Shown piece after piece: positions 10,015 through 43,768 of a stretch of 52,737 bases of DNA (position 1 is the first letter of the stretch; every line of letters begins with the position of its first letter). The position numbers were made by a program, and so were the translations under genes. The stretch is from a virus (lineage: Duplodnaviria > Caudoviricetes). The stretch lies in IMG/VR virus record IMGVR_UViG_3300025635_000031, positions 1 through 52,737 of that record; one strand, given 5' to 3'. The notes under the pieces were generated by a model. It saw nothing but the letters and a program-made list of their open reading frames with translations, made no database searches and was not told the DNA's origin.

Positions 10015-10017
10015 ACA

Positions 10018-13000: not shown

Positions 13001-13200
13001 AATTAATTAGCCACGCCCAAGATCAAAACATAGACACGCTGCGAATTAAAAATATGCAGGAAGATGAATATAAAGAAAACCCACCTGACCAAATTGCGGT
13101 TTTAAATCCACGGTTGATCCGTTCGGAATACGCGAAGTTTGATCCTGCCCGCCAGCATGAAAATGACATTGGCGCGGCCACTGGTGGAGAGGTCAACTAA
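10018..13200 (+). CDS. polyvalent protein: central HhH-glycosylase-like domain plus C-terminal ADP-ribosyltransferase (ART-PolyVal-like) domain
   Basis: WYE..ATS..N..K.GQF..VNDVW..QAPAW pattern; C-terminal GYHVT..IFFWDNP..A..QIAVLNPRLIRSEYAKFDP pattern. Confidence 0.6.
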   Translation: MADDKDKSVWQHAQDALNWIGNTKDRMRQQSLDYLVDQGMDVNDALRAANSVGRKVDRTNLISQVVAGGLSRPVAAAQMVGMGQDIGESLMGAGEELGSAVQGRAKGGRLLQDQYPTHYMPHVGRQVMQDGGDPKDVVNKALALTSGAQPSAQTVANLVKRGQPIAPPTADPTDEELAAARADTRVGNQIVAQRLNKIVPESKRVYKGQYTPGAPGGGRWSDLGDEVLSRPGAGFNVKDKELQQLWDEAVNESSAAAKKAAKDFNVRPTFHAKDWDQAMRLPLKDHLWYELSGEKMAENLPDLSGQEFMRMMDLVGATSARAAPDENLERALAAMSQHLRGAPIDVDLTQPDTVNRAISRMGQESSALPGNKTGQFSDTLTLAGGVPTRFPISVNDVWVGKMFGVPDKVMSSNQSLHEPMAIYFNKLRDMYNERHGHEVPFDYQSWNFQAPAWVHLRNKEANAESGDAYHQVWGKIIGKLQNAGVEGIDGDKITRQAMMDPRFADALRRTTQEFREAPKATVELGTKLTPTGLRAHELYKQAIAAGDDKTQKDYEKALVTAMYASARGKGHGWELLKKAITGDLSNKSDITRIVQPTADDPFTHGGTYENEMSPNIRIPLKGMTPQQIQYFNAIAGKHLNQGAMAASQVLPVDPNQVPRDGYVRGHSVFVPTTDGMKKEDIRKFASEINRLGHSMSYTSYPNGYVFDINPQFTDDGVKGIDHNTLADAYDVTLAPKYGKPALFAHDYKSEYQTQPEYGKLRTKLMKEMNDDFIKEAVQAGTPKDYARRIGQGSSLPSDVSKGTAKAWDRYRGRLYHLLFAEKEFQDLAKRVEDAHGAFIPKAEARLAKLAKSQAPQTPPAAPEEPTPTMAEGGTVHEPHQRAEEQGYSIKGYHVTRGPRAKGISSSGRFSLEHAENPGEEAIFFWDNPEAANDWAHALTQTTTFNPDKMTERDKDRFERHQTSILPVRINPGNHAEVDWPSFAGTHSYNTDAMSKLISHAQDQNIDTLRIKNMQEDEYKENPPDQIAVLNPRLIRSEYAKFDPARQHENDIGAATGGEVN

Positions 13201-13238
13201 ACCTTAACAAGGTTCTTTTTGACGAACAGTTGCACCTA

Positions 13239-13267
13239 TATTGCATAGCTGTGAAACGTGGTATTTT
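13239..13267 (+). promoter_or_regulatory. candidate late promoter (TATTGCATAGCT box, TGGTATTTT extended -10-like)
   Basis: intergenic; the 12-mer is repeated exactly at 17473..17484. Confidence 0.4.
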
Positions 13268-13317
13268 CCACTGATGCAATTGCACCGGGGGACGCCCCGC
13301 ACTAGCTAGGAGCTATT

Positions 13318-15222
13318 ATGTACGGTGAAGCTAAAAAGGCCCGCACGGCCATGAAGAACAAGGCCAAGCGCCTTGCTTCAGAGAAATCAGAGCGCGTTGA
13401 TTCGTCCACTTGGACGCAGGCAGAACCGCTTGATGCTGATGTAAAGACTGGCATGCGCCCTGTGTCGCGTCGTGCTTATCGCAGTGGCGGCAAGGTTCAG
13501 GGTGAAGTCACAAAGAAGCATGCTGGCAAGAAGGCCCGCGCTTCTGGTGGCGCGGCTAATGCCAAGCAGATCGCTCTGGCCAAGGTCAACCGTAACGTTA
13601 AAGATGCCAACGAAGAGCGCGAAGGCAAGAAGCACATTGGTGGCCTGAAGACAGGTGGCCGCGCCAAAAAGAAGATTGGCGGCGCTGCAGCCGATATCCT
13701 TGGTGTTCTTAGCCCTGTCGTTATGGCCGCAAACATGATGCGCGGCGACAAGGACGAAAAGAAACACGGTGGGCGCACCAAGCGTGAATATGGCGGTCGT
13801 GGTGTTGGGGAACGCACCCAACACGAATTGAAGCGCCGTGACGCTGTTCAGGCTGCGACGGACTACGGTGAAGATCCGCGCGTGACCGAAAGCGTTTTGC
13901 GCGACAAGACCCGTGCCTTTGAAAAGTCAGCCGAACAGACAGCTTATAAGAAGGGTGGCCGTACCAAAAAGATGGACGGTGGCCCTATGGGTGATCCGCG
14001 TCTTAATATTGCTAAGTCGCAGGCTTTTGATCTTACAAACACACGCGGCGCACCGGGTACGGTTGTTGCCAAGCGCGGTGGCAAGATCTCCCACATGGAA
14101 TGGGAGCATTCCAAGAAAGATCTTTCTGAAGATAAGAAGCTTGCCAAAAAGCACGGCATGTCTTTGGAAAAGTGGGAAAAGTCGAAGCTTGATGAAAAGC
14201 ACGACAAACAACAGTCAACCAAGGGCCTTAAGCGCGGCGGTCGTGCTAAAGGCGGCGCTACTAAATACCTTGGTGCTGGTTATGGTTCAAAAGACGAAAA
14301 AGAAGCTGAAAAAGAATACGGCAAAAGAGAACCTGCTCTTGATCGCGCTTTGAACCAGATGGAAGGCACTTTTAGCCCGTGGGCTATGCGCAAGTCGCGT
14401 GCAGAAATTGCAGAGCGCCGCGCCGGGGCGAAGGATGGCCCTGAAAAGCGTGCAGCTGCAAAAAAATACAGCGATGATGCAAGCCTGAAGGATGCTGGTT
14501 ATAAGCATGGTGGACGCCCTAAGCGCGCCACTGGCGGCATGATCAATGAAACCAAGAAGCTTGCCGCTCTTAAGGCTGATCCGCACAACCAAACTAAGAT
14601 CAAGCCTGCTATGCCAGCACCAAAAGAGCCTGCCGCTGAAAAATGCGGCGGTGGCCGTATGGCACGCAAGGCTGGTGGTCGCGCCAAGGGCAAGACCAAC
14701 ATCAACATTGTGATTGCAACTGGCAAAGGCCAGCCGGGTCAGGATGGTATGCCTCCGGGCATGCCTCCAATGCCTCCGGGCGGCCCTATGGGTGGCCCGC
14801 CGCGTCCTCCGGGTGGTGTGCCTGTTCCAATGCCAGCTGGCGGTCCTCCTGCGGCCCCGCAGGCGATGCCTATCCCAATGCCGATGCCTGCTCCCCAACA
14901 GCCCCCTATGGCGCGTAAGTCTGGCGGACGCATTACAAAGGTAGCCAAGTCCTATAAGGACATGGAAGCTGGTGCAGGATCTGGTGAAGGCCGTTTGCAG
15001 AAAACGGACATCGCCAAGCGTGATCGCAAAGACGAATACCAGAAGGGTGAAAAAGCTTTCACTGGCCTTGGTTATCCTAACAAGGTTCCGGGTGCCACAG
15101 GTGGGCGCACGGCACGCAAGGCTGGCGGCAAGGCATACCATTCTTACAAGGACATGGATGCGGGCGCTGGTTCGGGCGAAGGTCGTTTGGAAAAGACAGA
15201 AATCGCCAAGCGCAAAAAATAA
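13318..15222 (+). CDS. highly basic xxxGG-repeat protein (putative internal head protein or peptide polyprotein)
   Basis: 634 aa, Lys/Arg/Gly-rich, 19 xxxGG motifs, Pro-rich tract, duplicated C-terminal 24-aa unit; AGGAG RBS. Confidence 0.75.
14950..15213 (+). repeat. 72-nt imperfect direct repeat (14950..15021 and 15142..15213) encoding SYKDM(E/D)[10 protein letters not shown](Q/E)KT(D/E)IAKR
   Basis: visible in both protein and DNA. Confidence 0.9.
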
Positions 15223-15313: not shown

Positions 15314-15523
15314 GTGTTATCTTCACAAGCGTTCTTCCGCAATGAACTGATTAAGCTTCTTGCCGAAGACATAGAGCGAATTAAAGAAAATTTAACAAAT
15401 TGGGGTGCGACCCCTGACTTTCCTACTTACACACACCAAGTAGGGAAGATTGATGGCTTGCGCATGGCTTTAGAGCTGATTGAACAAGCTGAAAGTGCAA
15501 TGAATGGAGTGGAGAGGGGATAA
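15314..15523 (+). CDS. hypothetical head-module protein
   Basis: 69 aa with Y...VG.IDGL motif, upstream of the GroES-like gene. Confidence 0.65.
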   Translation: MLSSQAFFRNELIKLLAEDIERIKENLTNWGATPDFPTYTHQVGKIDGLRMALELIEQAESAMNGVERG

Positions 15524-15915
15524 TGCCATTTATGAAGATGGATCACGAAAATGATCCGCGCGCCAAGATCGTCAACGAAGTTGGTGATTTGTCGCAATTA
15601 GAATTGTTTAACAATCAGATTTTGGTTGGTGTCTACATCAGGCCGCAAAAAACCAAATCTGGTATTTATTTGGCTGATCGTACTGTCGATGAAGATCGTC
15701 ATCAGTCGAAGGTTGGTCTTCTCCTTAAAACAGGTCCAAAGGCGTTTGAACCAAACAATGATGGATGGTTTGAAGGCGAAACCTTCAATGAAGGTGATTG
15801 GCTTGTTTATCGCCCTGCAGACGGGTGGAGCATCACCGTTAATAATGTCCTTTGCCGCATCCTAATGGATACGCAGGTTAAGGGACGCATCCAAGATCCA
15901 GATCAGGTTTGGTAA
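15523..15915 (+). CDS. groES: phage co-chaperonin, GroES/Cpn10-like
   Basis: mobile-loop KTKSGIYL, then VGLLLKTGP, GDWLVY and RILMD. Confidence 0.8.
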   Translation: MPFMKMDHENDPRAKIVNEVGDLSQLELFNNQILVGVYIRPQKTKSGIYLADRTVDEDRHQSKVGLLLKTGPKAFEPNNDGWFEGETFNEGDWLVYRPADGWSITVNNVLCRILMDTQVKGRIQDPDQVW

Positions 15916-31141: not shown

Positions 31142-31159
31142 CACTTGTTGGAGGGGGAA

Positions 31160-32776
31160 ATGCCTTTTAGTTCTGAAAGCGGTAAGGCCGCTATCAAATG
31201 GGTAGTATCTAAACTACCAAAGACAGACCGTATGTTGGACATCGGCGCAGGGTGTGGAACCTATGCCAAAATGTTCAAAGCACAGCATTGGACTGGTGTA
31301 GAGGTTTGGGAGCCATATGTTGAAAAGTATGGCCTGAAAGACCTATACAATACACTTCTTGTCCAAGATGCCACAGAGATAAATTTTACTGAACATTATG
31401 ATGTAGCATTTGCTGGTGATGTACTAGAACACATGTCATCAGAAGAGGCGGTCAAGCTTGTTAAAAAGCTAAAGAAATGCGCTGATACTGTCATCATTAG
31501 CATCCCTATTGGTCATTACCCGCAAGGACCGTATGAAGACAATCCATACGAAATCCACATAGTTGATAATTGGACACACGATGCTTTTGTTGAAGCCTTT
31601 GGCGCGCCAACATTCTGGCGGATTGACAATGAAATTGGCATCTACGTTTATAGCAAGTTTGCTATAAAGCTAAACATCGCTGTGTATGCTATAAGCAAGA
31701 ATGAAGAGCAGTTCGTAGAACGGTTCGCAAAGGCTTGCAAAGATGCCGACCTTATCATGGTGGCCGACACGGGAAGTACAGACGGAACTGTGGAAGCCTG
31801 TCAGCGCCATGGCATTACCGTTCACAATATATGCATCACACCTTGGAGATTTGACCACGCCCGTAACGCGGCTGTGGCTCTCCTCCCTAGAAATATTGAT
31901 GTATGCATCAGCCTTGACTTGGATGAACTATTGGAACCCGGATGGCGCAAAGAGATAGAGCGTGTCTGGAAGCCCGGTGAAACAACCCGCCTGCAATATC
32001 TATTCGATTGGGGCCACGGGATTAGGTTCGCCTATCAAAAAATCCATGCGCGCCATGGGTATTTCTGGCACCACCCGTGTCATGAGTACCCTGTATATGA
32101 CAAGCGAATCACAGAAGTCTGGGCATATACCGATATGCTCTTGGTTAGCCATCATCCTGACCCGACCAAAAGCCGCGGGCAATACCTAGATCTTCTGGAA
32201 CTATCGATTAAGGAAGACCCGCGCTGCCCGCGTAATGCTTTCTATTATGCCCGCGAATTGACGTTCTACAGTAAGTGGAATGAAGCCATTAAGGCCCTGC
32301 ATCGTTATTTAGAGATGCCAGAGGCTGTATGGCCCAATGAACGCTGCTATGCCATGCGCTTATTGGGTAAGGCCTATGACCATGTTGGGAACGGATATGA
32401 AGCCGTTGCATGGTATCGCAGGGCCTGCGCAGAGGCTCCCAATACGCGCGAACCATGGTGTGATTTAGCTATGTGGCTTTATCGCAGACAGGAATGGGCG
32501 GAATGCTTTGGCGCGTCTATGAAGGCTTTATCAATCAAAGATAAGCAGCTGGTCTATACGTGCGATCCTACTGTCTGGGGGTACTGGGCGCATGATTTGG
32601 CCAGCATTTCTGCATGGCAGCTAGGCCTTCATGATGTTGCCCTAGAACAGGCGCAATTAGCGCTTCAGCATGAACCAGAAGACCTTCGATTGAAGGCTAA
32701 TTTAGAGTATATTCAGCGCCACATTTCAGGAGAGGGGGAAGGTGGTATGGGCGATGGATTACCAGACGCTGTTTAA
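31160..32776 (+). CDS. class I SAM methyltransferase - GT2 glycosyltransferase - TPR fusion
   Basis: LDIGAGCG and GDVLEH; YAISKNEE, DTGSTDGT, FDHARN, SLDLDE; TPR-like helices. Confidence 0.85.
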   Translation: MPFSSESGKAAIKWVVSKLPKTDRMLDIGAGCGTYAKMFKAQHWTGVEVWEPYVEKYGLKDLYNTLLVQDATEINFTEHYDVAFAGDVLEHMSSEEAVKLVKKLKKCADTVIISIPIGHYPQGPYEDNPYEIHIVDNWTHDAFVEAFGAPTFWRIDNEIGIYVYSKFAIKLNIAVYAISKNEEQFVERFAKACKDADLIMVADTGSTDGTVEACQRHGITVHNICITPWRFDHARNAAVALLPRNIDVCISLDLDELLEPGWRKEIERVWKPGETTRLQYLFDWGHGIRFAYQKIHARHGYFWHHPCHEYPVYDKRITEVWAYTDMLLVSHHPDPTKSRGQYLDLLELSIKEDPRCPRNAFYYARELTFYSKWNEAIKALHRYLEMPEAVWPNERCYAMRLLGKAYDHVGNGYEAVAWYRRACAEAPNTREPWCDLAMWLYRRQEWAECFGASMKALSIKDKQLVYTCDPTVWGYWAHDLASISAWQLGLHDVALEQAQLALQHEPEDLRLKANLEYIQRHISGEGEGGMGDGLPDAV

Positions 32777-34111: not shown

Positions 34112-34858
34112 GTGACAACAGGGTTATCATATAATGGGTCGGTCGCAGGGACAAACAGCTACGTAGAGCAGCTGGCCAATTTGGCTGTTGTTAAGCTTAA
34201 CTTATCAGACCCTACTGATCCGTTCACGATCCTAATCCCGCAAGCTATTACGTATGCTGAAAACCGCATATATCGGGACTTGGATTTTCTATCTACAGTA
34301 TCTGTAAATTCAACATATTCTGTTTCTGTAGCTAATAGAAACATTAACGTACCGGCAAGTGCTTTTGTAACTATTCAAGATGTTAATTTAATTTTGCCAG
34401 CAAATACGCCGACTCCAGATTCGGGTACACGCCAACCGCTGCTGCCAACAACAAAAGAATACCTTAACAACGTATACCCAAGCGCTGCTGGTTTAGCCCC
34501 TCCTGCTTACTTTGCCATGATTGATCAAAACAAAATGATTGTTGGTCCTTGGCCTGACAACACATATACAGTGGAAATAGTTGGCACAATTCGCCCAGAT
34601 AGCCTTTCAGCAACAAATACAACAACTTTTATTAGCTTGTATTTGCCGGATCTGTTTTTGATGGCATCTATGATATTTGTGTCTGGTTACCAGCGCAACT
34701 TTGGCCGTCAGTCTGATGACCCAGCAATGGCGCAATCATACGAAAGCCAATATAAAACGCTTATGACTGGCGCGACGATGGAAGAAATGCGGAAGAAATT
34801 TCAATCTTCTGCTTGGTCTTCTATGTCTCTTCCTGTTGTTGCAACGCCAACACGGTGA
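34112..34858 (+). CDS. head-tail adaptor / tail tubular protein A-like
   Basis: AENRIYR.L, P.YFA, GP.PD..Y.VE, PDLFL.A motifs. Confidence 0.65.
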   Translation: MTTGLSYNGSVAGTNSYVEQLANLAVVKLNLSDPTDPFTILIPQAITYAENRIYRDLDFLSTVSVNSTYSVSVANRNINVPASAFVTIQDVNLILPANTPTPDSGTRQPLLPTTKEYLNNVYPSAAGLAPPAYFAMIDQNKMIVGPWPDNTYTVEIVGTIRPDSLSATNTTTFISLYLPDLFLMASMIFVSGYQRNFGRQSDDPAMAQSYESQYKTLMTGATMEEMRKKFQSSAWSSMSLPVVATPTR

Positions 34859-34863
34859 AGTAA

Positions 34864-37398
34864 ATGCCACACGCATCACTTAAGCTAGTTCCGGGTGTAG
34901 ACCAAAACAAAACGCCCGCTTTGAATGAAGCTGCAATTTCTTCCACAAACCTTGTCCGTTTTGTTCCTGATCGAAATGGTTTAGGCCTTGTTCAAAAGCT
35001 TGGCGGATGGACACGGTTCTACAGTAGCCCCATGACATCTAAAGTAAGGTGCTTGTGGGCGTGGCAAACGCTTAATGACATCAGCTACCTTGGTGTTGGG
35101 GCGGAAGAGAGCCTTAACACAATTAGTGAAGGTTCTCTTAGGACAATTACGCCACAATATTATGTTGTAAATCCACCAGTTGATTTTTCGACAACTGCTG
35201 GAAGTGCCGTTGTAACTATTACAGATACCAATAGTAATATTGATAACTACGATGCTGTATGGATTAGCACACAAGTTACTATTGGCGGCTTACGCTTACA
35301 GGGCCTTTATCAATGCTCTTCGCTAAGTTCCGGCACGTATTCAATTGTTGCCAGAGATGTTCTTGGATACGAACAACAGGCTACATCAACCGTTTCTAAC
35401 AGCGGCAACATACCGTCTTTTACAACGGCATCAGGATCGGCACAGGTCACTGTAGATTTTACGGATCATTTATATTCAGAAGGTGATACGTTTACACTTT
35501 TAGTCCCAATTGACATTGGTGGCATTTCCCTTTTTGGAAATTACGTTATTGCGGATGTAACGACAGCTAATCAGTTTATTATTAATGCAAGTAATACGGC
35601 CTCTTCAACCCAAACACTTGCGCTAAATAACGGTCTTGCCCGTTTTACATATTATAATGGTGTTGGCCCTTTACCTGCCGGTTCTGGATATGGGATTGGT
35701 GGATATGGAGAAAACGGATACGGAACGGGTATCCCGCCAACGGCATTTAGACAAATGGTTACAATTGGTGCTAAAGGCGATGGCACAACGGCAACAATTA
35801 GCCATAGCACAAATACAAAACTATCCGCAGGCACAACATTAACAGTTTCCGGTGTTACGCCAGCGGGGTATAACACGGGCGCGCCAGTCGCAATTACAGG
35901 ATCTACTTCAAACTTATTTTACGTAACTAACGTTGTTGGAAGTGGGTCAACTGTAACAGTTACACATAGCGGAAGTTCTGCAATTGAAGTTGGAACTGTC
36001 TTTACATTGTCGGGGGTAAACCCTGCTGCATATAACGGCACTTGGACAGTTACTAATTCAACAACAACAACAGTTGAGTTTTCATCCGCTACAACAACAG
36101 CTTATGTGTCTGGTGGTCTGGTTGCGTCAAATACTATTTCATACCTTAATGCGACAACGGGCGCACAAACTGTTGCTGGCCTTATTACCCTTAATCAAAT
36201 TCCGACCCTAACATGCACTGATTGGACGTTGGATAATTGGGGCGAATTCCTGATTTCTTGCCCCAATAACGTTAGCACTGATCCCGGCCAGCCAGATGAT
36301 TATCTTACAGGCGGTGGGATATATTATTATCAGCCAGATGCTGGGACGCCTGTTGCTACAATCATCCCAACAGCGCCACCAGTTAATCGTGGTATGTTTG
36401 TCTCTATGCCGCAACGCCAAATTGTTGCTTGGGGATCAACGTTTAATGGAATTATTGACCCACTTTTAATTCGCTGGACAGATGTTGGCGATTTTAATGT
36501 TTGGGCTGGAACTGTAACTAATCAAGCAGGTTCATATAGAATTCCAAAAGGTTCAAAGGTTGTCGGATGCATTCAAGGCCCGCAACAAGGCCTTGTTTGG
36601 ACGGATCTTGCTATATGGGCCATGCAGTACATTGGGCCTCCCTACGTTTATTCGTTTAACGAAATTGGAACTGGTTGCGGACTAATAGCGCCAAAAGCTT
36701 CAACTTCCATGAACGGCGTGGTTTATTGGATGTCGCAATCGCAATTCTTCCGCCTTGCTGGTGGCGGCGTAGAGCCAATACCTTGCCCAATTTGGGATGT
36801 TATCTTCCAAGATCTTGACACAAATAATCTTGATAAGATCCGTATCGCTCCAAATTCCCGCTTTGGAGAAGTAACTTGGTACTATCCAACTGTTGGTAAT
36901 GGCGGTGAAGTTAGTCATTACGCAAAATACAACGTTTACATGAACCAGTGGGACTTCGGCGCGATTGGTAGAACAGCGTGGATTAACCAATCCGTGTTTG
37001 GCCCTCCAATTGGCGCGACACCTGATAACATTATTGTGCAGCATGAAACATCAACCGATGCTGACGGTCAGGCTATGAACTCTTTCTTCCAGACCGGCTA
37101 TTTCCAGTTAAATGATGGTGATGTGCTAACCTTTGTTGACCAATTCTGGCCAGATGCAAAGTGGGGTTATTATGGCGGGGTACAGAACGCAAACCTACTT
37201 TTGACATTTTATGTGACACAATATGCCGGTGACACACCTATTGCGTATGGGCCGTTCACTTTGACTGAAGCAACAGAATATGTGACACCACGGCTTCGTG
37301 GTCGTTTAGTAAGTATAAAGATTGAAAGCAATGATGTTGGAACTTTTTGGCGTCTTGGAAACATGCGTTATCGCTGGCAGCCGGATGGGAAATTCTAA
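34864..37398 (+). CDS. tail nozzle / tail tubular protein B-like (DNA stabilisation protein)
   Basis: 844 aa; QKLGGW, W.LDNWGE, DPLLIRW.D, TNQAG, RLRGR motifs. Confidence 0.7.
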   Translation: MPHASLKLVPGVDQNKTPALNEAAISSTNLVRFVPDRNGLGLVQKLGGWTRFYSSPMTSKVRCLWAWQTLNDISYLGVGAEESLNTISEGSLRTITPQYYVVNPPVDFSTTAGSAVVTITDTNSNIDNYDAVWISTQVTIGGLRLQGLYQCSSLSSGTYSIVARDVLGYEQQATSTVSNSGNIPSFTTASGSAQVTVDFTDHLYSEGDTFTLLVPIDIGGISLFGNYVIADVTTANQFIINASNTASSTQTLALNNGLARFTYYNGVGPLPAGSGYGIGGYGENGYGTGIPPTAFRQMVTIGAKGDGTTATISHSTNTKLSAGTTLTVSGVTPAGYNTGAPVAITGSTSNLFYVTNVVGSGSTVTVTHSGSSAIEVGTVFTLSGVNPAAYNGTWTVTNSTTTTVEFSSATTTAYVSGGLVASNTISYLNATTGAQTVAGLITLNQIPTLTCTDWTLDNWGEFLISCPNNVSTDPGQPDDYLTGGGIYYYQPDAGTPVATIIPTAPPVNRGMFVSMPQRQIVAWGSTFNGIIDPLLIRWTDVGDFNVWAGTVTNQAGSYRIPKGSKVVGCIQGPQQGLVWTDLAIWAMQYIGPPYVYSFNEIGTGCGLIAPKASTSMNGVVYWMSQSQFFRLAGGGVEPIPCPIWDVIFQDLDTNNLDKIRIAPNSRFGEVTWYYPTVGNGGEVSHYAKYNVYMNQWDFGAIGRTAWINQSVFGPPIGATPDNIIVQHETSTDADGQAMNSFFQTGYFQLNDGDVLTFVDQFWPDAKWGYYGGVQNANLLLTFYVTQYAGDTPIAYGPFTLTEATEYVTPRLRGRLVSIKIESNDVGTFWRLGNMRYRWQPDGKF

Positions 37399-37754
37399 TG
37401 GCTAGTTTAGATGACATCTTAACAACACAGAAAAACGGCGTTGTTGCTATTAATGCGCTGAACAACATTACGCTTGGTTCGGCAGGTACTGTCACTTCCG
37501 CTACAGTTACATCAACAACTCTTGTATTTGTTGGGGCTGGTCGCCTTGTAAATGTTTCCGTTGTGGTCAATGGATCAGCAGACGGATTTATTCATAATGC
37601 GTCTACGACAGGCGGCATTACGGCATCAAATGCTTTGTGCGCTACGCCATCTGCAGCTGTTGGTGTCTATCCTTGCGGACAAGTGTTTACCAATGGTCTT
37701 GTGATCGATCCGGGTGCCGGACAGTCAATCAATGTAACGTATTCAAGCGGGTGA
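37398..37754 (+). CDS. virion structural protein
   Basis: coupled ORF, beta-rich C-terminus. Confidence 0.6.
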   Translation: MASLDDILTTQKNGVVAINALNNITLGSAGTVTSATVTSTTLVFVGAGRLVNVSVVVNGSADGFIHNASTTGGITASNALCATPSAAVGVYPCGQVFTNGLVIDPGAGQSINVTYSSG

Positions 37755-37757
37755 TCT

Positions 37758-38723
37758 ATGCCTCTTAAAAAGGGTTCTTCACAGAAGACCGTATCGACAA
37801 ACATCCGCGAACTTGTTCATTCGGGTAAGCCGCAAAAACAAGCGGTTGCTATTGCTCTTGATGTGGCGCGTCGGTCCAATAAAGCCGTAGGTGGGGAACT
37901 AACGCCTGTTGTCAATCCAACCGTTTACAATGCACAGTTGCTTTCAACCCTTTCTGGCAAGCCTGTAGCGGCAGGCGATGGGAAGTCAGAAAAAGCACCT
38001 GATGGTGAAGCACAGGCAGGCACAACCGCATCACCAATCATGCAAAAAATGGCTGAAAATTTGGGCGGCGGTGGTGGTGGTGGGGACGGGGGCGGCGGCG
38101 GTTCCAATTTTGGAGGGTCCGATGCCAGTGGCACAGCCGGTGGCGTCAATGGCTCTGATTATGGCGGCGGTTCTGGTAATAACCCCGGCAGCGAAGGCGG
38201 CTCTCCTGCAACCCTTGCAGAAGGCGGCGCAGCGCCCTTCTTTGGCGGTGGAACGGGCACTACTACCAAGGTCCACGTAGGGCCCATCCACAGCCCCGTA
38301 GCAGGCCGTACAGACCATCTGCCTATGCATGTTCCTTCAGGGTCCTATGTGATCCCTGCCGATATCATTTCGGCCATGGGGGAAGGCAATACGATGGCTG
38401 GGTTTAAGGTGGCCAATACAATCTTTAGCCGTATCCCCGGAATGACTGGCGCGCCCGGTATGCAGGCTATCCCGACGAAGGGTAGCACACCCGGTATGGA
38501 TGCCGAATTAGGCATCCCCGGCAAAGCAAGGGGTGGCACTATTGAAGATGCTGTACCCATCGTTGCGGCTGGTGGGGAGTATGTAATTTCGCCGGGCGAT
38601 GTTCGTCGTATTGGCGAAGGAGACTTAGACAGGGGGCATCAGGAGCTTGATCTATTTGTTAAGGCGATGCGCGCCAAGACAATCAAGACCCTGCAAAAGC
38701 TCCCCGGTCCAAAGCGTGATTAA
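37758..38723 (+). CDS. protein with three xxxGG motifs and two 'P...G(S/E)YVI' domains
   Basis: MPLKKG.S..T.S.NI.E N-terminus; GRTDHLP..VPSGSYVIPAD and VPIVAAGGEYVISP. Confidence 0.7.
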   Translation: MPLKKGSSQKTVSTNIRELVHSGKPQKQAVAIALDVARRSNKAVGGELTPVVNPTVYNAQLLSTLSGKPVAAGDGKSEKAPDGEAQAGTTASPIMQKMAENLGGGGGGGDGGGGGSNFGGSDASGTAGGVNGSDYGGGSGNNPGSEGGSPATLAEGGAAPFFGGGTGTTTKVHVGPIHSPVAGRTDHLPMHVPSGSYVIPADIISAMGEGNTMAGFKVANTIFSRIPGMTGAPGMQAIPTKGSTPGMDAELGIPGKARGGTIEDAVPIVAAGGEYVISPGDVRRIGEGDLDRGHQELDLFVKAMRAKTIKTLQKLPGPKRD

Positions 38724-38737
38724 CGAAGGGGGACTAC

Positions 38738-39220
38738 ATGACAGAAGATCTGCAAATCCGGATTGGAACGCCGGATGATCTGGATGAAGTGATGGACGCA
38801 GCGCAGTCAGCGATTGCCGAAATTGGCCTTGTACATCCAGACCCACGAAAAGTTCTTGAAGACGTTTGGCCAGCCTTAAATCAACAGGCTGGTATTGTTG
38901 GTATTATTCAAAAGCCCGGCGGTCCTGTAGAGGGCGGTGTCCTTTTAAGAATGGGTAAAATGTGGTATTCAAATCAAGATGTACTTGAAGAACGCTGCGT
39001 TTTTATCAAGCCAGAGTTCAGGAACGCTAAAGGCGGTCGTGCGCGCAAGCTTGTTGAATTCTCCAAAAGCGTTGCTGAATCGCTGGGTGTGCCTTTGCTG
39101 ATTGGTGTCATGTCAAGCATTAGAACCGAAGCTAAGGTTCGCCTTTACGAAAGGCAGTTTGGCAAGCCGCAGGGGGCGGTATTTCTCTACAATCTGCATC
39201 CACAAGTGCAGGAAGGATAA
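38738..39220 (+). CDS. GNAT-fold protein preceding the ejection proteins
   Basis: IR..T.DD, FIKPEFR...GRARKL motif A-like, LYERQ. Confidence 0.55.
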   Translation: MTEDLQIRIGTPDDLDEVMDAAQSAIAEIGLVHPDPRKVLEDVWPALNQQAGIVGIIQKPGGPVEGGVLLRMGKMWYSNQDVLEERCVFIKPEFRNAKGGRARKLVEFSKSVAESLGVPLLIGVMSSIRTEAKVRLYERQFGKPQGAVFLYNLHPQVQEG

Positions 39221-39226
39221 AAATTA

Positions 39227-42200
39227 ATGTGCGGCGGATCATCTACAACCACCCAATCGACCACGATCCCACCAGAGGTTCTGGCGCGATATAATGCGGT
39301 CAACGCGCGGGCAGAAGATGTCGCCAAACAGCCATTCCAGCGATACACGGGCCAATTTGTAGCCCCCATCAACCAACAACAGATGGCAGGCATTAGCGGC
39401 ATTAATCAAGCTGCCAATATGGCTCAACCATATTTCAATCAGGCATCTGGCGCTCTAACAAATGCTTATGGGCAGGCAAATCCATACTATGGGCAGTCTA
39501 TTAACACAGTTGCGGGTGGTGCAAGCCAAGCAAACCAACTTTATGGAACTGCTCTTGGCGGCATTTCTAATGCTGTTAACATTGGTTCGCAGTATGGGAC
39601 GGACGCAACACGATTTATCAATCAAGCCGGGACCTCTGCCCAGCCATATATGAACCAAGCAGGGGCATATGTTGGTAGCGGCCTTGCGGCTGCAGATCCT
39701 TTACTTGCGCAATCGCAAAAGTTTCTTGAAGGTTCTACGCAAGCAATTAACCCGCAAGAGTTTAGTCAGGCCCAGATTAACAAGTACATGTCTCCCTACA
39801 TGAAGAATGTAGTGGAGGCGCAGCAGGCCCTTCAGCAGCAAGAATCGGCAGCGCAGCGTTCGGCTCTTAATTCGCAGGCTATTGGCGCTGGCGCGTTTGG
39901 TGGTGATCGTGCCGGAATTTCACAGGCAAACCTTGCGCGCCAACAGACGCTGGCCAACCAAGCAACTTTAGGCAATTTGTTGCAGCAGGGATATGGTCAG
40001 GCCGCTGGCATGTTCCAGCAGCAGCAGGGCGTTAACCTTGCTGCAGAGCAGGCTAATCGTCAGGCCCAGCAATTTGGCCAACAGGCCGCAGCCAATCTTG
40101 CGCAACAACGTTTTGGGCAAAACCTTGCCGCATCACAGCAATACGGAAATTTAGGTCAAGCTTTATTCGGCCAAAATTTGTCGCAAGGTCAGGCTCTATC
40201 TGCTCTTGGCCAACAACTTTATAGTCAGGGTCTGGGGGCTGCACAAGCACAAGCTGGAATTGCCCAAAATCAATTTGGCATGTCTGCGCAACAGGCCAAT
40301 TTAATGCAGCAGGCCGCGCAGGGTCTTTTTGGCATGGGGTCGCAATATGCTTCCGGCCTTGCTGGCCTTGGAACAGGAGCGCAGGCCGCAGCATTGCAGG
40401 GCGCGCAGGCACAGATTGGTGCTGGAACACTGCAGCAACAAACGCAGCAAGCGCAAGACACCGCTAAATACAACGAATTTTTGCAAGAGCGTGGTTATCC
40501 GTTCCAGATCGCGCAGTTCTTGGCAAACATTGCTATGGGTACTGGCGCGTTGTCTGGTTCAACTACAACGACAACGTCACCGAATAACTGGATGTCTGAC
40601 CGCCGCCTTAAGAAAGATATTAAAGAAATTGGTGAAACCCACGATGGTCTTCCGATCTATAGCTTTAAGTACAAGGGCGGTGATGACCAGCAGCGTATTG
40701 GTGTTATGGCCGATGAAGCGCGGGAAAAGCATCCTGATGCTGTCCATCGTGTTGGCGGAATTGATTCGGTTGATTACGACAAGATTGTAAACCGCGCCAG
40801 TGAAGGTGGGGGTGTTCTCCCGCACCGTGCCCGTGAAGGTTTTGCTTTAGGAAGTTCAGTACCTTCTGGTAGCGCAAGCGTCAGCGATGATATTTTTAAA
40901 CAATACCTTAATTTTATTGGTTTAGCTGACACACCGCATGGGAACGTAGCTTCATATGCAAAATCTGCAAAAAATTTGCCGGGGCAAGCAGGTATTGTTC
41001 CGCAGCAAACTCCACCAATTATGCAGTTAAGAGCGCCAAGCTCTCCCCCACGCCAACAAGAAAGTGGACTATCGCAAGCAGCTTCTGCATACAAAACTGT
41101 AGAAGGTGGGCTTGATAAGCTGTTTGGTGAAAAGGGTCTTGCAACATCTAAGGGTATGCCAGCGCGCATATACAAAGGTCTTACAGGAAGTAACGACGAC
41201 AAGCAGGGTTCTAAATCGGGCCAAAATACTTCAACTTCGTCAGAGCCACCACAACAACAAAAACTAGAACAAACAAAAGCATCTTCTGTTTCTCCAGATG
41301 AAAAGTCTTTTTACGATAAATTTATTGATTGGTATCAAAACCGCGCTTATGGCGGCGGCGTTGCACCACAATTTATGGCAAGAGGCGGCGTATCTGCCTT
41401 GAATGAAGGTATTCTTCCTTATCAAACAGAAGATAAATATGGTCCAGAAGCTGTTAATGAAGCAGAAAGCGGACACAAGTTTGATACTCTTGATGAAGCT
41501 GGTGGAGGGAAAAGCGGTTCTGGATCTGGGTCAGGTTTGGCAAACGCCATAGGAATGGCAGGTACCGCAATAAAAGGTCTTACTGCTCTTGCATCTCTTC
41601 TTCCATCCGATGAACGTTTTAAAACGGGCATGAAACGGGTTGGTGAATTAGACAACGGCCAACCAGTCTATAAATATCGTATTGGTAATGGGCCAACCCA
41701 AATTGGACTATCTGCACAGAACGTATCTAAATATGGTGATCCATCGTCTGTTTATCGTGATGATGATGGTTTCCTTCATTTAGATTATGAACGCGCCACA
41801 CGGGAATATGGCGGTGGTATCCGCCCAGCATATCAAACGCGCGGTCGCGTTGATCCCGATATGCAAGACATCGATTACGCAATCAGAACAGCTGCAGCTG
41901 AAACAACTGGTGATCCAGATGAAACGCGCGGGATTGCGCATGTGATCCATAACCGTTTGCAATCTGGAAAGTATGGTGACAGTTATAAAAATGTTGTTTT
42001 AGCGCCAAATCAATTTGAACCTTGGCAAACAGAAAACAACAACCCGATGCGGATTAAACCTGATGATCCGCGTTATCAGCAAGCAAAAGCTGCGTTTGAA
42101 GATATTCAATCCGGCAATATGGACCCACGTTTTGAAAATGTTCAGAATTTTTGGGGTCCAATATCACAGTACGCTCTTAAGCGTCAGGCACCTGAATGGG

Positions 42201-43768
42201 GTCGTGTAGGCGGTCTAGATCTAGGTGGAACACGGTTCCATTCTCTTGACGAAGTTAAGGCATCGCATAGAGGAATTGAAGCACGCCCATTTGAAGGAGC
42301 GCCAGCAAATGTTCGCCGCTCTGTAGCTCCAGCTGAATCATATATTGATGAAAGCGGAAAGCGCGTAAATACAGTCAATGGAGAAGAAGAAAAAGGAACG
42401 CTTGCTGGCCTTCTTCCGACTAATTACCGCACTGGCGCGCCATTTAAGGGATGGTCAGACTATCTTACTGATCGCCAATTTGTTCGCCCATTGTTTGCTG
42501 GCCTTGCTGGCATGGCACAGTCCAAGAGCCGTTTTGCTGTTCCAGCAATTCTTGAAGGATTGGGGGCAGCTGCCGCAGCCGACATGATGGCTGAAAAAGG
42601 ACAACAAGAAATTGCTGAATCGCAATCGCGTGAACAATTGGGTCTAGCCCAATCGCGCAATATGTCTATTCAAGAAATTACACCCGGATATTTTATTGTT
42701 TATCTTGCTAAGGGTGGCACTAAAGATTTGGCCGATTGGATGGAGACGCAAGAGCCTCTTGTTGGGGGTGAATCTGGGGCTGAATTGGCGCGTAAAATTT
42801 ATGCCCGTAAAACGGGGCAGGCATCTGCAAAACCAGCTGCATATACTGGAACAGCTGATACAGGCGCAGGTGCAGCTACCGCTGGGCAGGCGGGTACTGA
42901 AGCTGGTTCTGCAGGGGCTGGAACAACAACAGTTGTTGGTGGTCAATCAGCACAAGGCCAGCCGGGACAAATAAAGCCTGCAAAAAGTGCAAATATACCG
43001 ATATCACCGTTTGTCACATACGATGATAGTTCTGTGCAACGCGCCAGAGAAGACTTTAAACAAACGCAGTCTCCCGGCGGCCAATCGTTTGCAGAGCAAG
43101 GAAGAGAAAACCGGAAAAAAATTAATAATGGTGCGCAACAATCCTACGGAATTGCACCAGTAATTAATGAAATGGCGCAAAACATCATGGATTCGCTTTC
43201 CCAGACTGGGATATCTTCAACCGGTCCGGGTTTTGGAAAAATTGCATCCGCATCTGCCGTACTTGGAACATGGCCAGCGCGCTTTGGCCTTCCAATTGAT
43301 TTTACAAAGCCAGCTGACATTAAGCAAAAAGCGCAAAAATATGCGGAATTTTTGGCAGCTGCAGCGGCGCAGGGTTATGGTCAAGATACCCTTGGTGCAA
43401 TGCAAAGAATGGCTTCTGTTATGCCAGAACCAGAACTTACAAAAGATACCCAAGCACAACTGACATCTGAACTTCTTGTGTTTAACAAAAAGGATCAGCA
43501 TAGGCAGCAGTTTGCACAAAAATATGATCGCGATTCAAACAGCAATCCTGCTAACGTCTATGCAGAGTTTGAACGCTTAAATAAACAGAAATATTTAGAT
43601 TCTGTTTCGTTGGTTAAAAAATTAATGCTTGAAGATCCAGTTTTGGCAAAAGGATTTTTGTCAAATCAGGTACCTCCAGAAGAGATGGAAAAGTTCTTCA
43701 AACAGTATGCGCAAAGCCGTAAACTAAAATACCATACGGGTATGTCTGACTTTTTTGTGGGGCAGTGA
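39227..43768 (+). CDS. DNA ejection/pilot protein with two peptidase S74-like domains and a SleB-like cell wall hydrolase
   Basis: Gln/Ala/Gly-rich N-terminal third; SDRRLK and SDERFK domains; RT..AE...AHVI.NR...V.APNQFEPW. Confidence 0.78.
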   Translation: MCGGSSTTTQSTTIPPEVLARYNAVNARAEDVAKQPFQRYTGQFVAPINQQQMAGISGINQAANMAQPYFNQASGALTNAYGQANPYYGQSINTVAGGASQANQLYGTALGGISNAVNIGSQYGTDATRFINQAGTSAQPYMNQAGAYVGSGLAAADPLLAQSQKFLEGSTQAINPQEFSQAQINKYMSPYMKNVVEAQQALQQQESAAQRSALNSQAIGAGAFGGDRAGISQANLARQQTLANQATLGNLLQQGYGQAAGMFQQQQGVNLAAEQANRQAQQFGQQAAANLAQQRFGQNLAASQQYGNLGQALFGQNLSQGQALSALGQQLYSQGLGAAQAQAGIAQNQFGMSAQQANLMQQAAQGLFGMGSQYASGLAGLGTGAQAAALQGAQAQIGAGTLQQQTQQAQDTAKYNEFLQERGYPFQIAQFLANIAMGTGALSGSTTTTTSPNNWMSDRRLKKDIKEIGETHDGLPIYSFKYKGGDDQQRIGVMADEAREKHPDAVHRVGGIDSVDYDKIVNRASEGGGVLPHRAREGFALGSSVPSGSASVSDDIFKQYLNFIGLADTPHGNVASYAKSAKNLPGQAGIVPQQTPPIMQLRAPSSPPRQQESGLSQAASAYKTVEGGLDKLFGEKGLATSKGMPARIYKGLTGSNDDKQGSKSGQNTSTSSEPPQQQKLEQTKASSVSPDEKSFYDKFIDWYQNRAYGGGVAPQFMARGGVSALNEGILPYQTEDKYGPEAVNEAESGHKFDTLDEAGGGKSGSGSGSGLANAIGMAGTAIKGLTALASLLPSDERFKTGMKRVGELDNGQPVYKYRIGNGPTQIGLSAQNVSKYGDPSSVYRDDDGFLHLDYERATREYGGGIRPAYQTRGRVDPDMQDIDYAIRTAAAETTGDPDETRGIAHVIHNRLQSGKYGDSYKNVVLAPNQFEPWQTENNNPMRIKPDDPRYQQAKAAFEDIQSGNMDPRFENVQNFWGPISQYALKRQAPEWGRVGGLDLGGTRFHSLDEVKASHRGIEARPFEGAPANVRRSVAPAESYIDESGKRVNTVNGEEEKGTLAGLLPTNYRTGAPFKGWSDYLTDRQFVRPLFAGLAGMAQSKSRFAVPAILEGLGAAAAADMMAEKGQQEIAESQSREQLGLAQSRNMSIQEITPGYFIVYLAKGGTKDLADWMETQEPLVGGESGAELARKIYARKTGQASAKPAAYTGTADTGAGAATAGQAGTEAGSAGAGTTTVVGGQSAQGQPGQIKPAKSANIPISPFVTYDDSSVQRAREDFKQTQSPGGQSFAEQGRENRKKINNGAQQSYGIAPVINEMAQNIMDSLSQTGISSTGPGFGKIASASAVLGTWPARFGLPIDFTKPADIKQKAQKYAEFLAAAAAQGYGQDTLGAMQRMASVMPEPELTKDTQAQLTSELLVFNKKDQHRQQFAQKYDRDSNSNPANVYAEFERLNKQKYLDSVSLVKKLMLEDPVLAKGFLSNQVPPEEMEKFFKQYAQSRKLKYHTGMSDFFVGQ

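What the first reader, a model, noticed from the sequence alone, without database searches (positions are those of the whole stretch)
37758..38723. Candidate reader or protease of the GG tag: stand-alone protein with two copies of the tape-measure C-terminal 'AxGG...GE(F/Y)V' domain
Seen: LAEGG...GPIHSPVAGRTDHLPMHVPSGSYVIPADIISAMG and KARGGTIEDAVPIVAAGGEYVISPGDVRRIG. From memory and to be verified: siphophage tape-measure proteins carry FAxGG...(SDSIPA/PAGIVH)..GEFV....(S/R)RIG near their C-terminus, as in lambda gpH, which is C-terminally processed during assembly. This phage has no tape measure, yet it encodes the domain separately, two genes upstream of the ejection proteins. Inference: the AxGG peptide completes this fold as a beta-strand, so the free domain could bind or cleave in trans the many AxGG tags in other proteins.
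Basis: partly seen in the sequence, partly recalled or inferred. Interest (0 to 1): 0.75.

Follow-up and report, generated by a model that had tools for sequence, protein, structure and literature searches.

The report
Tape-measure-like module in podophage ejection protein
This short-tailed phage gene encodes a core particle-module protein whose end domain is built from two copies of a short module otherwise found once near the end of tail tape-measure proteins, and it looks like a carrier or anchor that itself bears the Gly-Gly marks, not an enzyme that reads them.

Summary
ORF 37758..38723 (+, 321 aa) carries two copies of a ~40-residue unit (A-x-G-G, beta-hairpin with G-[SE]-Y-V, short helix, I/M-G-E-G). 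Lambda gpH has the same unit at 733-772, and so do many other tape measures.

The statistical link to tape measures is modest: hhalign E 3.8e-4, probability 36%, 40 columns. Bridging proteins strengthen it.

The protein has three parts: a 42-residue N-terminal helical hairpin, a Gly-rich linker, and a 150-residue C-terminal domain. The domain folds confidently (pLDDT above 90 in the ordered parts) and matches no solved fold.

The family is very large: 2044 representatives at 50% identity. The domain sits at the extreme C-terminus. In 18 of 91 long relatives it is fused to effector domains such as ART-PolyVal, InPase, NUDIX and GNAT.

Gene order adaptor, nozzle, orf135, this gene, acetyltransferase, large ejection protein is kept in 75-77 of 80 loci. 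All 43 testable nozzle-anchored loci carry the domain.

My reading is a packaged carrier or anchor protein of the ejection module. Its A-x-G-G joints are probably hinge or cutting sites, since T5 pb2 is cut at R|AEGG. I found no support for a trans-acting reader or protease. The scan has noted this module before on other DNA.

The parts
37758..38723 (+). Whole gene, 321 aa plus stop
   Evidence: ORF list. 2541 relatives at E <= 0.001 among the 8000 candidates scored. 2044 representatives at 50% identity.
37758..37883 (+). N-terminal 42-residue helical hairpin (MPLKKGSSQKTVSTNIRELVHSGKPQKQAVAIALDVARRSNK)
   Evidence: phrog_2423 at E 2.2e-19 over residues 1-42. Predicted helices 9-21 and 26-40 with pLDDT 82-93. 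The same module is found in 582 phage records at E <= 1, among them the N-termini of annotated prohead proteases of Acinetobacter AP22-like phages.
37884..38270 (+). Gly/Ser/Asn-rich linker, residues 43-171, with A-x-G-G joints at residues 43-46 (37884-37895) and 154-157 (38217-38228)
   Evidence: pLDDT below 50 for most of it. Its length ranges from about 0 to more than 350 residues in relatives. This is the place where cargo domains sit in relatives.
38271..38429 (+). Repeat 1, residues 172-224: KVHVGPIHSPVAGRTDHLPMHVPSGSYVIPADIISAMGEGNTMAGFKVANTIFS
   Evidence: Predicted strands 187-193 and 197-199, helices 201-207 and 212-224, pLDDT 85-96. G183, R184, T185, D186, V198 and N211 are invariant in 109 sequences.
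38430..38525 (+). Variable linker between the two repeats, residues 225-256
   Evidence: pLDDT below 50. The GRTD-to-GGE distance is more than 110 residues in 23 of 144 representatives and more than 200 in 14 of them, so inserts are tolerated here.
38526..38537 (+). Third A-x-G-G joint (ARGG, residues 257-260)
   Evidence: K256, A257, G259 and G260 are at least 90% conserved. 128 of 144 representatives have [AS]xGG within 40 residues upstream of the repeat-2 hairpin, and the residue before it is K or R in 62 of those 128.
38538..38720 (+). Repeat 2 and C-terminal helix, residues 261-321: TIEDAVPIVAAGGEYVISPGDVRRIGEGDLDRGHQELDLFVKAMRAKTIKTLQKLPGPKRD
   Evidence: Predicted strands 265-271 and 275-277, helices 279-285 and 290-314, pLDDT 90-97. 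GGE[YFH][VI] lies exactly 49 residues from the protein end in 126 of 150 representatives and 48-53 residues in 143 of the 144 that match the pattern. This repeat aligns to lambda gpH 728-772.
34112..34858 (+). Adaptor protein (context)
   Evidence: Pfam SU10_adaptor, E 3.2e-16.
34864..37398 (+). Nozzle-type large tail protein (context)
   Evidence: phrog_3287, E 9.5e-52. Its counterpart in MW202675 is annotated 'phage stabilization protein'.
37347..37754 (+). orf135, a small conserved ORF directly upstream (the true start is probably later than the listed TTG, which overlaps the nozzle gene)
   Evidence: Found upstream of the target in 76 of 80 related loci. No Pfam or PHROG family.
38738..39220 (+). 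Acetyltransferase-like gene directly downstream
   Evidence: phrog_1249, E 4.5e-7. Present downstream in 77 of 80 loci.
39227..43768 (+). 1513-aa ejection protein with Peptidase_S74 and Hydrolase_2 domains
   Evidence: Pfam. phrog_6121 and phrog_4287 'DNA ejection protein'.

Best explanation
The gene encodes a core protein of the tail and ejection gene module of a large clade of uncultured short-tailed phages with SU10-type portal and adaptor. The protein has three parts. The first is a small N-terminal helical hairpin that also heads other proteins annotated as head or virion components. The second is a disordered Gly-rich linker. The third is a 150-residue C-terminal domain in which two copies of one ~40-residue unit (A-x-G-G joint, beta-hairpin G-[SE/E]-[YF]-V, short helix, I-G-x-G, longer helix) pack into one compact fold.

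The same unit occurs once near the C-terminus of many tape measure proteins. In lambda it lies inside the cleaved C-terminal piece gpHC, which stays in the tail tip.

Inferred mechanism: the C-terminal domain is an assembly or anchoring module. It holds the protein in the particle, either in the exit channel or in the internal core, so that the protein leaves with or ahead of the DNA. In relatives it would hold effector cargo inserted at the joints in the same way. The A-x-G-G joints are flexible hinges and probably cutting sites. The copy in this window is a cargo-less member.

Shown here: the architecture, the repeat, conservation, synteny, the fusions, and the predicted fold with no solved counterpart.

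Inferred only: presence in the virion, anchoring, ejection and cutting.
For: The domain is nearly always at the extreme C-terminus, 48-53 residues from the hairpin to the end in 143 of 144 matching representatives. That placement fits a targeting or anchoring end.

Cargo fusions: of all 91 representatives of 300 aa or more, 18 carry a Pfam domain upstream or between the repeats. These are ART-PolyVal 8, InPase 3, GNAT 3, NUDIX 2, PG_binding_1 1 and DUF7178 1. ART-PolyVal and InPase are Pfam's 'polyvalent protein' families. Iyer et al. 2017 argue that such proteins are packed in capsids and delivered (PMC5512222, passages).

The gene behaves as a core gene. Adaptor, nozzle, orf135 and acetyltransferase flank it in 75, 77, 76 and 77 of 80 loci. 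Starting from the nozzle protein instead, 43 of 43 loci with at least 2500 nt downstream carry the domain.

Link to tape measures: hhalign of the family against 11 tape-measure C-termini gives E 3.8e-4 over 40 collinear columns. The tape-measure motif HMM ranks this ORF first among all six-frame ORFs of the window (E 0.037). The family HMMs hit F116 gp58, Dartukuta gp56, a Planktothrix phage protein and Caulobacter GB2A 'tape measure' at p 1e-8 to 1e-13. The GB2A unit finds 248 phage records, mostly annotated tape measures. All 6 fetched tape measures are hit at the same spot by the family HMMs and by the lambda-type HMM.

In lambda the unit lies in gpHC. The C-terminal helix of gpHC sits as a trimer on gpI in the tail-tip lumen (PMC12617516 and PMC10721106, passages).

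The N-terminal hairpin recurs at the start of annotated prohead proteases and 'virion proteins'.
Against: There is no direct evidence that the protein is in the particle: no proteomics or structure exists for this clade.

The domain has many invariant polar residues for a mere anchor: R184, T185, D186, N211, E274 and D298, with H187 and H294 at 90% or more. That pattern would also fit an active or ligand site.

The tape-measure link rests on about 40 columns. The hhalign probability is only 36%, and 13% against lambda alone. TIGR01541 and Pfam did not hit the protein. The HMM p-values are per sequence, on sequences pre-selected by tblastn.

The function of the unit in tape measures is itself unknown. 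gpH residues ~690-817 are unresolved in the lambda structures.

73 of the 91 long relatives have no recognisable cargo. The GNAT domains fused in relatives show no sequence similarity to the neighbouring acetyltransferase.
Confidence: 0.5

Rival explanations
1. Processing cassette. The main job of the A-x-G-G plus hairpin unit is to specify a cut just before the Ala. The cut is made by the unit itself in cis, or by a phage or host protease. The protein, and in relatives its cargo, is released as separate pieces during assembly or after ejection.
For: T5 pb2 is cut after R1127 (PMC10038345, passage), and the T5 sequence there reads FVPR|AEGGMM. Lambda gpH is cut in its Gly-rich C-terminal region at an unmapped site and by an unknown catalyst (PMC12617516, passages). 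A cut at F733|A734 would give 79.8 + 12.5 kDa against the reported ~78 + ~14 kDa. An A-x-G-G precedes every folded unit and flanks the inserted cargo. The residue before it is K or R in 62 of 128 cases. Invariant D, E and H residues lie next to the joints.
Against: Only one mapped site (T5) supports it. T5 pb2 is not hit by the hairpin HMMs, so cutting there does not need the hairpin unit. The lambda masses fit only roughly. No protease fold or family was found. No processing data exist for any family member. I did not see figure S5G of the T5 paper.
Confidence: 0.2
2. One reading: a free reader or protease that binds or cleaves, in trans, the A-x-G-G tags of other late proteins.
For: A-x-G-G is enriched in the post-portal proteins (459, 1060 and 634 aa) and in the ejection proteins: 20 observed against about 6.7 expected in six proteins, this one included. 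The domain has invariant polar residues. Stand-alone forms of 127-173 aa exist.
Against: The protein carries the tags itself. In relatives it is the constant end of tag-bounded cargo proteins. The predicted fold is complete without a trans strand. No peptidase family or fold was found. Its fixed position at the extreme C-terminus is unusual for a free enzyme.
Confidence: 0.07
3. An assembly factor that is not kept in the mature particle, for example a chaperone or scaffold for the nozzle or the ejection proteins, comparable in role to tail assembly chaperones.
For: It is a core gene wedged between the nozzle and the ejection genes. No virion data exist.
Against: Effector fusions (ART, NUDIX, InPase) make little sense on a protein that stays behind in the producing cell. 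The tape-measure counterpart, gpHC, is kept in the particle.
Confidence: 0.08

Closest known systems
C-terminal region of tape measure proteins: lambda gpH residues ~728-853 (fragment gpHC) and the GPGTxTSDSIPAxLSNGE[FY]V form in actinophage, 9NA and Burkholderia tape measures
   Same: The same collinear unit: A-x-G-G, a hydrophobic strand, G-E-[FY]-V, then R-I-G-x-G, followed further on by a C-terminal helix. It is flanked by Gly-rich sequence.
   Different: Tape measures have one unit at the end of a long helical ruler. Here two units form one domain in a 321-aa protein of a phage with no long tail. TIGR01541 does not hit the protein. The function and structure of the unit in tape measures are unknown.
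Polyvalent proteins of phages and conjugative elements, and MuF-type head carriers (Iyer et al. 2017, PMC5512222)
   Same: Relatives carry ART-PolyVal, InPase, NUDIX or GNAT domains on a constant virion-module scaffold.
   Different: The window's protein carries no effector domain. The constant part is not MuF. 'Tape measure' does not occur in that paper's text.
Small internal or ejection proteins of short-tailed phages (T7 gp13/gp14 by position; SU10 gp20-24)
   Same: Its place in the gene order is after adaptor and nozzle and before the large lytic ejection protein. Short forms are about 196-208 aa. The SU10 virion holds five ejection proteins (PMC9509320, passages).
   Different: The profile search of solved-structure sequences listed only one chain, an unrelated one, at E <= 10. 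SU10 was not among the 3 tblastn matches in the phage collection.
Pseudomonas phage F116 gp58 and Bacillus phage Dartukuta gp56
   Same: Both units lie back to back (GPGTGTSDDIKAEVPAGSYIMPAD... then ...SDGEFQLPPEQVHAVG), in cultured podophages and upstream of giant multidomain proteins.
   Different: There the domain is at the N-terminus of a ~670-aa protein, not at the C-terminus. Similarity is at profile level only.
T5 pb2 maturation site
   Same: The cut after R1127 falls directly before AEGG, the same joint motif.
   Different: No hairpin unit is detectable after it in T5.

Membership tests
Tape-measure C-terminal A-x-G-G / GE[FY]V unit (uncatalogued; in lambda covered by the end of TIGR01541) | Collinear motif: A-x-G-G, spacer, hydrophobic strand, G-E-[FY]-V, 4-6 residues, [RK]-x-G-x-G | tested here: met
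   Repeat 2 (ARGG..VPIVAAGGEYVISPGDVRRIGEGD) matches fully. Repeat 1 has Ser in place of Glu (SGSYV), and its GRTDHLPMHV matches the G-x-[ST]-D-x-I-P-A form.
Tape-measure C-terminal A-x-G-G / GE[FY]V unit | Statistically significant profile similarity to tape-measure C-termini | tested here: inconclusive
   hhalign gives E 3.8e-4 but probability 36% over 40 columns, and E 0.0021 with probability 13% against lambda alone. TIGR01541 and Pfam gave no hit. Bridging hits are stronger, but they are on pre-selected sequences.
Tape measure protein proper | Long ruler protein with TMP family domains, encoded between tail chaperones and tail-tip genes of a long-tailed phage | tested here: not met
   The protein is 321 aa with no TMP Pfam. 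There were 0 matches to PF10145 in the record. The context is adaptor and nozzle of a short tail.
Polyvalent proteins (Iyer et al. 2017) | Two or more effector or enzymatic domains in one polypeptide of a packaged or transferred protein | tested here: not met
   No Pfam domain in the window's protein at E <= 10. The feature is met by some relatives only: 18 of 91 have at least one such domain.
Peptidase (any clan) | Recognisable peptidase family or catalytic fold | tested here: inconclusive
   No Pfam family. The best solved-fold match is Z 3.6 among 48,161 chains. Foldseek found none at E <= 0.001. Invariant D, E and H residues exist.
Podophage ejection or internal virion proteins | Present in the particle and released on infection | not testable with these tools
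   Only gene position and the cargo fusions in relatives speak for it.

The most novel reading that the evidence does not exclude
The A-x-G-G plus hairpin unit is a shared docking-and-processing cassette of the 'first-out' proteins of tailed phages. It marks where tape measures (lambda gpH, T5 pb2) are cut and how their C-terminal piece is held in the tail exit. Short-tailed phages keep a duplicated, ruler-less remnant of it as the constant end of a carrier that loads interchangeable effectors. This would tie tape measures and podophage ejection proteins to one ancestry, and it would predict the unmapped lambda gpH cut at F733|A734.
Probability: 0.2. Interest if true: 0.8.

Novelty: new variant of a known kind. 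Interest (0 to 1): 0.55.

Why it matters
The unit sits in the part of lambda gpH (about residues 690-817) that the recent structures could not resolve. It lies next to a maturation cut whose site and catalyst have been unknown since the 1980s (PMC12617516, passages).

This family offers a small, abundant version of that unit that is confidently foldable and duplicated in one chain, so it is a tractable object for structure and biochemistry. The same domain is also the constant end of a widespread family that carries ADP-ribosyltransferase, NUDIX, pyrophosphatase and acetyltransferase domains. That points to a general way in which short-tailed phages load injected effectors.

No Pfam, NCBIfam or annotated PHROG covers the domain. 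My literature searches found no description of it. Those searches cover only the open-access library held here.

Tried and rejected
- The first AF2 model, of the whole protein, was poor (mean pLDDT 57), and its Foldseek search gave nothing.
- A profile search of PDB sequences with the family gave one chance hit, HGPRT at E 0.73.
- The tape-measure profile against PDB found only lambda gpH itself and the C-terminal helix of one other tape measure. No solved chain therefore shows the unit.
- The protein search with gpH 715-853 returned only near-identical E. coli prophage tape measures and was useless for building a profile. I built the profile from the phage collection instead.
- Complex prediction with three copies of the C-terminal domain gave no support (score 0.00, controls not run). 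This says nothing either way.
- The ESM Atlas gave only unnamed viral clusters. The nearest named cluster, a crAss cargo protein at 0.85, is at chance level.
- BFVD gave 3 matches at E <= 0.001, all uncharacterised uncultured-phage proteins. A tape measure appeared only at E 1.4.
- A metal-site idea from the four His in VHVGPIHSPVAGRTDHLPMHV was dropped, because H173 and H191 are not conserved in the divergent set.
- A Rosetta-stone link between the neighbouring acetyltransferase and the GNAT domains fused in relatives failed at sequence level (phmmer E above 1).
- The hairpin HMMs found no further copy in any other ORF of the window.

Full report
**What is there.** The window is a whole virus record of 52,737 bases, rated 92% complete. 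It has a terminase, an SU10-type portal, a Mu gpT-like capsid protein, fibres, a lysozyme, an SU10-type adaptor, an 844-aa nozzle-type protein and large ejection proteins, all on the + strand. The finding's ORF is real: 37758..38723, 321 aa, with its ATG 3 nt after the stop of the upstream ORF.

**The repeat.** Residues 186-215 and 264-293 align as DHLPMHVPSGSYVIPADIISAMGEGNTMAG with DAVPIVAAGGEYVISPGDVRRIGEGDLDRG. The score is 45 against 24.7 +/- 4.3 for shuffles, and 1 of 500 shuffles reached it. An HMM of repeat 2 finds repeat 1 only weakly (i-E 0.23), and the reverse hit is weaker still (i-E 7.3). The duplication is therefore old.

**Architecture and family.** Pfam gives nothing at E <= 10 and NCBIfam gives nothing meaningful. 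PHROGs recognises only residues 1-42 (phrog_2423, unknown function, E 2.2e-19).
- The 90%-clustered protein database holds 2541 relatives at E <= 0.001 among the 8000 candidates scored.
- The 50%-clustered library holds 2044 representatives for the C-terminal 157 residues alone, 1579 of them at E <= 1e-10.
- Alignments show three parts: a conserved N-terminal hairpin, a linker of very variable length, and a strongly conserved C-terminal domain.
- Over 109 divergent sequences the invariant residues are G175, G183, R184, T185, D186, V198, N211, G215, G272, G273, E274, P279, G293, D298 and P316.
- Among the 150 representatives I looked at (lengths 127-1500 aa), the repeat-2 hairpin lies exactly 49 residues from the end in 126. 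It lies 48-53 residues from the end in 143 of the 144 that match the pattern. My strict pattern finds the N-terminal hairpin in 61.
- Inserts occur upstream of repeat 1 (more than 200 residues in 66 of 144). Less often they occur between the repeats (more than 110 residues in 23 of 144).

**Fold.** With a 109-row alignment, AlphaFold2 gives the C-terminal domain a mean pLDDT of 77.4 and a pTM of 0.69, with 83 residues at 90 or more. Each repeat is a beta-hairpin, a short helix and a longer helix. The 35-residue inter-repeat linker is below 50, and so is the protein's own ARGG joint.
- No solved structure resembles it. The best VIA-align Z is 3.6 among 48,161 chains, with none at Z >= 5. Foldseek has no match at E <= 0.001.
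- In the viral predicted-structure library only 3 uncharacterised uncultured-phage proteins match at E <= 0.001.
- A missing match does not prove a new fold.

**The tape-measure link.** Lambda gpH, fetched from J02459, reads [39 protein letters not shown] at 733-772. This lies outside Pfam's Tape_meas_lam_C, which covers 627-701.
- tblastn with gpH 715-853 finds 1047 phage records. In distant ones only the stretch around 745-785 survives, at 75-90% identity.
- I aligned 11 tape-measure C-termini from lambda-like, T1-like, P2-like, Vibrio, Acinetobacter, Stenotrophomonas and Arthrobacter phages.
- Profile against profile, the family aligns to them over 40 collinear columns at repeat 2: E 3.8e-4, probability 36%. 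Against lambda alone it is E 0.0021, probability 13%. Taken alone this is suggestive, not proof.
- Bridging evidence is stronger. The family's repeat-1 HMM hits the N-terminus of F116 gp58 (p 5e-9), a Planktothrix phage protein (9e-14), Caulobacter phage GB2A's annotated tape measure (1.4e-8) and Dartukuta gp56 (2e-8).
- The GB2A unit in turn finds 248 phage records at E <= 0.01. Most are annotated tape measures: Mycobacterium 71, Gordonia 55, Arthrobacter 24, and also 9NA and Burkholderia phiBtTUL1a.
- All 6 tape measures I fetched carry GPGT[GS]TSDSIxAxLSNGE[YF]V. All 6 are hit at that spot by the family HMMs and by the lambda-type HMM.
- These p-values are per sequence, on sequences chosen by tblastn, so they overstate significance.
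- F116 and Dartukuta show that the two-unit domain also exists in cultured podophages, there at the N-terminus of ~670-aa proteins upstream of giant multidomain proteins.

**Context.** In the best 80 of at least 582 IMG/VR contigs that encode the domain, the neighbours are the same as here. The adaptor is present in 75, the nozzle in 77, orf135 in 76, the acetyltransferase in 77 and the large ejection protein in 68 of 80. The misses are mostly at contig ends.
- I then anchored on the nozzle protein instead: 290 relatives, of which 77 loci were kept. All 43 loci with at least 2500 nt downstream carry the domain, and the other 34 were too short to tell. The gene is therefore a core gene of this clade.
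- MW202675 from the phage collection shows the same order.

**Cargo.** All 91 representatives of 300 aa or more were scanned with Pfam (25, 66).
- Eighteen carry a recognised domain: ART-PolyVal 8 (one of them below Pfam's cut-off), InPase 3, GNAT 3 (one below cut-off), NUDIX 2, PG_binding_1 1 and DUF7178 1. Seventy-three show nothing.
- Where cargo is present it is bounded by A-x-G-G joints (sequences).
- The window's own protein has only a low-complexity linker.
- Iyer et al. 2017 describe such multi-effector 'polyvalent' proteins as packed in capsids and delivered into the host (PMC5512222; I read the passages returned by a term search). 'Tape measure' does not occur in that text.

**What the joints may be.** A-x-G-G stands in front of each folded unit, at residues 43-46, 154-157 and 257-260. 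It is conserved: 128 of 144 representatives have it upstream of repeat 2, preceded by K or R in 62.
- In the window it is also enriched in the three post-portal proteins and the ejection proteins. Six proteins, this one included, have 20 against about 6.7 expected. All 37 ORFs together have 30 against 17.1.
The paper places the pb2 cut after R1127 (PMC10038345, passage; figure S5G not seen). The T5 sequence there is FVPR|AEGGMM. The hairpin HMMs do not hit pb2.
- For lambda, the cut site and its catalyst are unknown. gpH ~690-817 is unresolved, and three copies of the last helix (818-849) sit on gpI in the tip lumen (PMC12617516 and PMC10721106, passages). A cut at F733|A734 would give 79.8 + 12.5 kDa against the reported ~78 + ~14 kDa. 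That is compatible but not decisive.

**Reading.** The constant, strictly C-terminal, core-gene domain with variable cargo upstream fits a structural carrier or anchor of the ejection module, with the joints as hinges and probable cutting sites.
I cannot exclude a cis-catalytic role, given the invariant polar residues.
- No data show that the protein is in the particle.
- SU10, the structural reference for the portal and adaptor, has a needle gene after the nozzle gene and five ejection proteins (PMC9509320, passages). SU10 was not among the 3 tblastn matches of this protein in the phage collection.

**Earlier notes of this scan.** Four notes on other genomes describe the same module: a 'carrier protein with GG-bounded effector cassettes', a 'tape-measure junction cassette', 'tape-measure-type glycine joints' and a 'Gly-Gly junction tag'. 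One of them is marked 'part of it fell' on a later check, and I do not know which part. I found the fusions and the gpH match before reading these notes. The T5 lead came from them, and I checked it myself.

Noticed in passing
window 37758-37883; phage records: The 42-residue N-terminal hairpin (MPLKKGSS..KQAVAIAL..AR) is a mobile module. tblastn finds it in 582 phage records at E <= 1. These include the N-termini of annotated prohead proteases of Acinetobacter AP22-like phages, 'virion protein' of PB1-like Pseudomonas phages, small ORFs beside the endosialidase of K1E/K1-5-like phages, and Caulobacter phages. It may be a capsid-targeting element.
   Followed up: partly
window 8635-15222 (ORFs of 459, 1060 and 634 aa after the portal gene): Three large post-portal proteins have no Pfam or PHROG family, yet they carry 9 A-x-G-G joints against about 2.6 expected, mostly preceded by K, R or M. 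They may be further packaged proteins built from joint-bounded pieces.
   Followed up: no
window 39227-43768: In the 1513-aa ejection protein Pfam reports one Peptidase_S74 stretch (residues 457-506) and a Hydrolase_2 domain (902-978). By eye, a second S74-like stretch (SDERFKTGMKRVGELDNGQPVY) follows a Gly/Ser run near residue 795. I did not test this.
   Followed up: no
window 37347-37754: orf135 is a small Ser/Thr/Val/Gly-rich ORF (by eye; its fold was not predicted). It is conserved in 76 of 80 related loci and has no known family. Its listed TTG start overlaps the end of the nozzle gene, so the real start is probably the in-frame ATG near 37398. By position it could be the channel plug or needle equivalent.
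   Followed up: partly
L093 (Pseudomonas phage F116, NC_006552) about 8920-9000 of the locus: The annotated GTG start of F116 gp58 falls inside the first hairpin unit. An in-frame ATG upstream adds MFGFKKGAKSKVQQLAEGGR, which includes the A-x-G-G joint, so the deposited start is probably too late.
   Followed up: partly
window 31145-32776: A 543-aa ORF among the fibre and lysis genes combines methyltransferase, family-2 glycosyltransferase and TPR matches (phrog_13126, E 7.6e-104). It could be a host-surface or virion-modifying enzyme.
   Followed up: no
window 15523-15915: A GroES-like co-chaperonin ORF (phrog_3188, E 9.5e-8) sits in the head module between the post-portal proteins and the capsid gene.
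   Followed up: no
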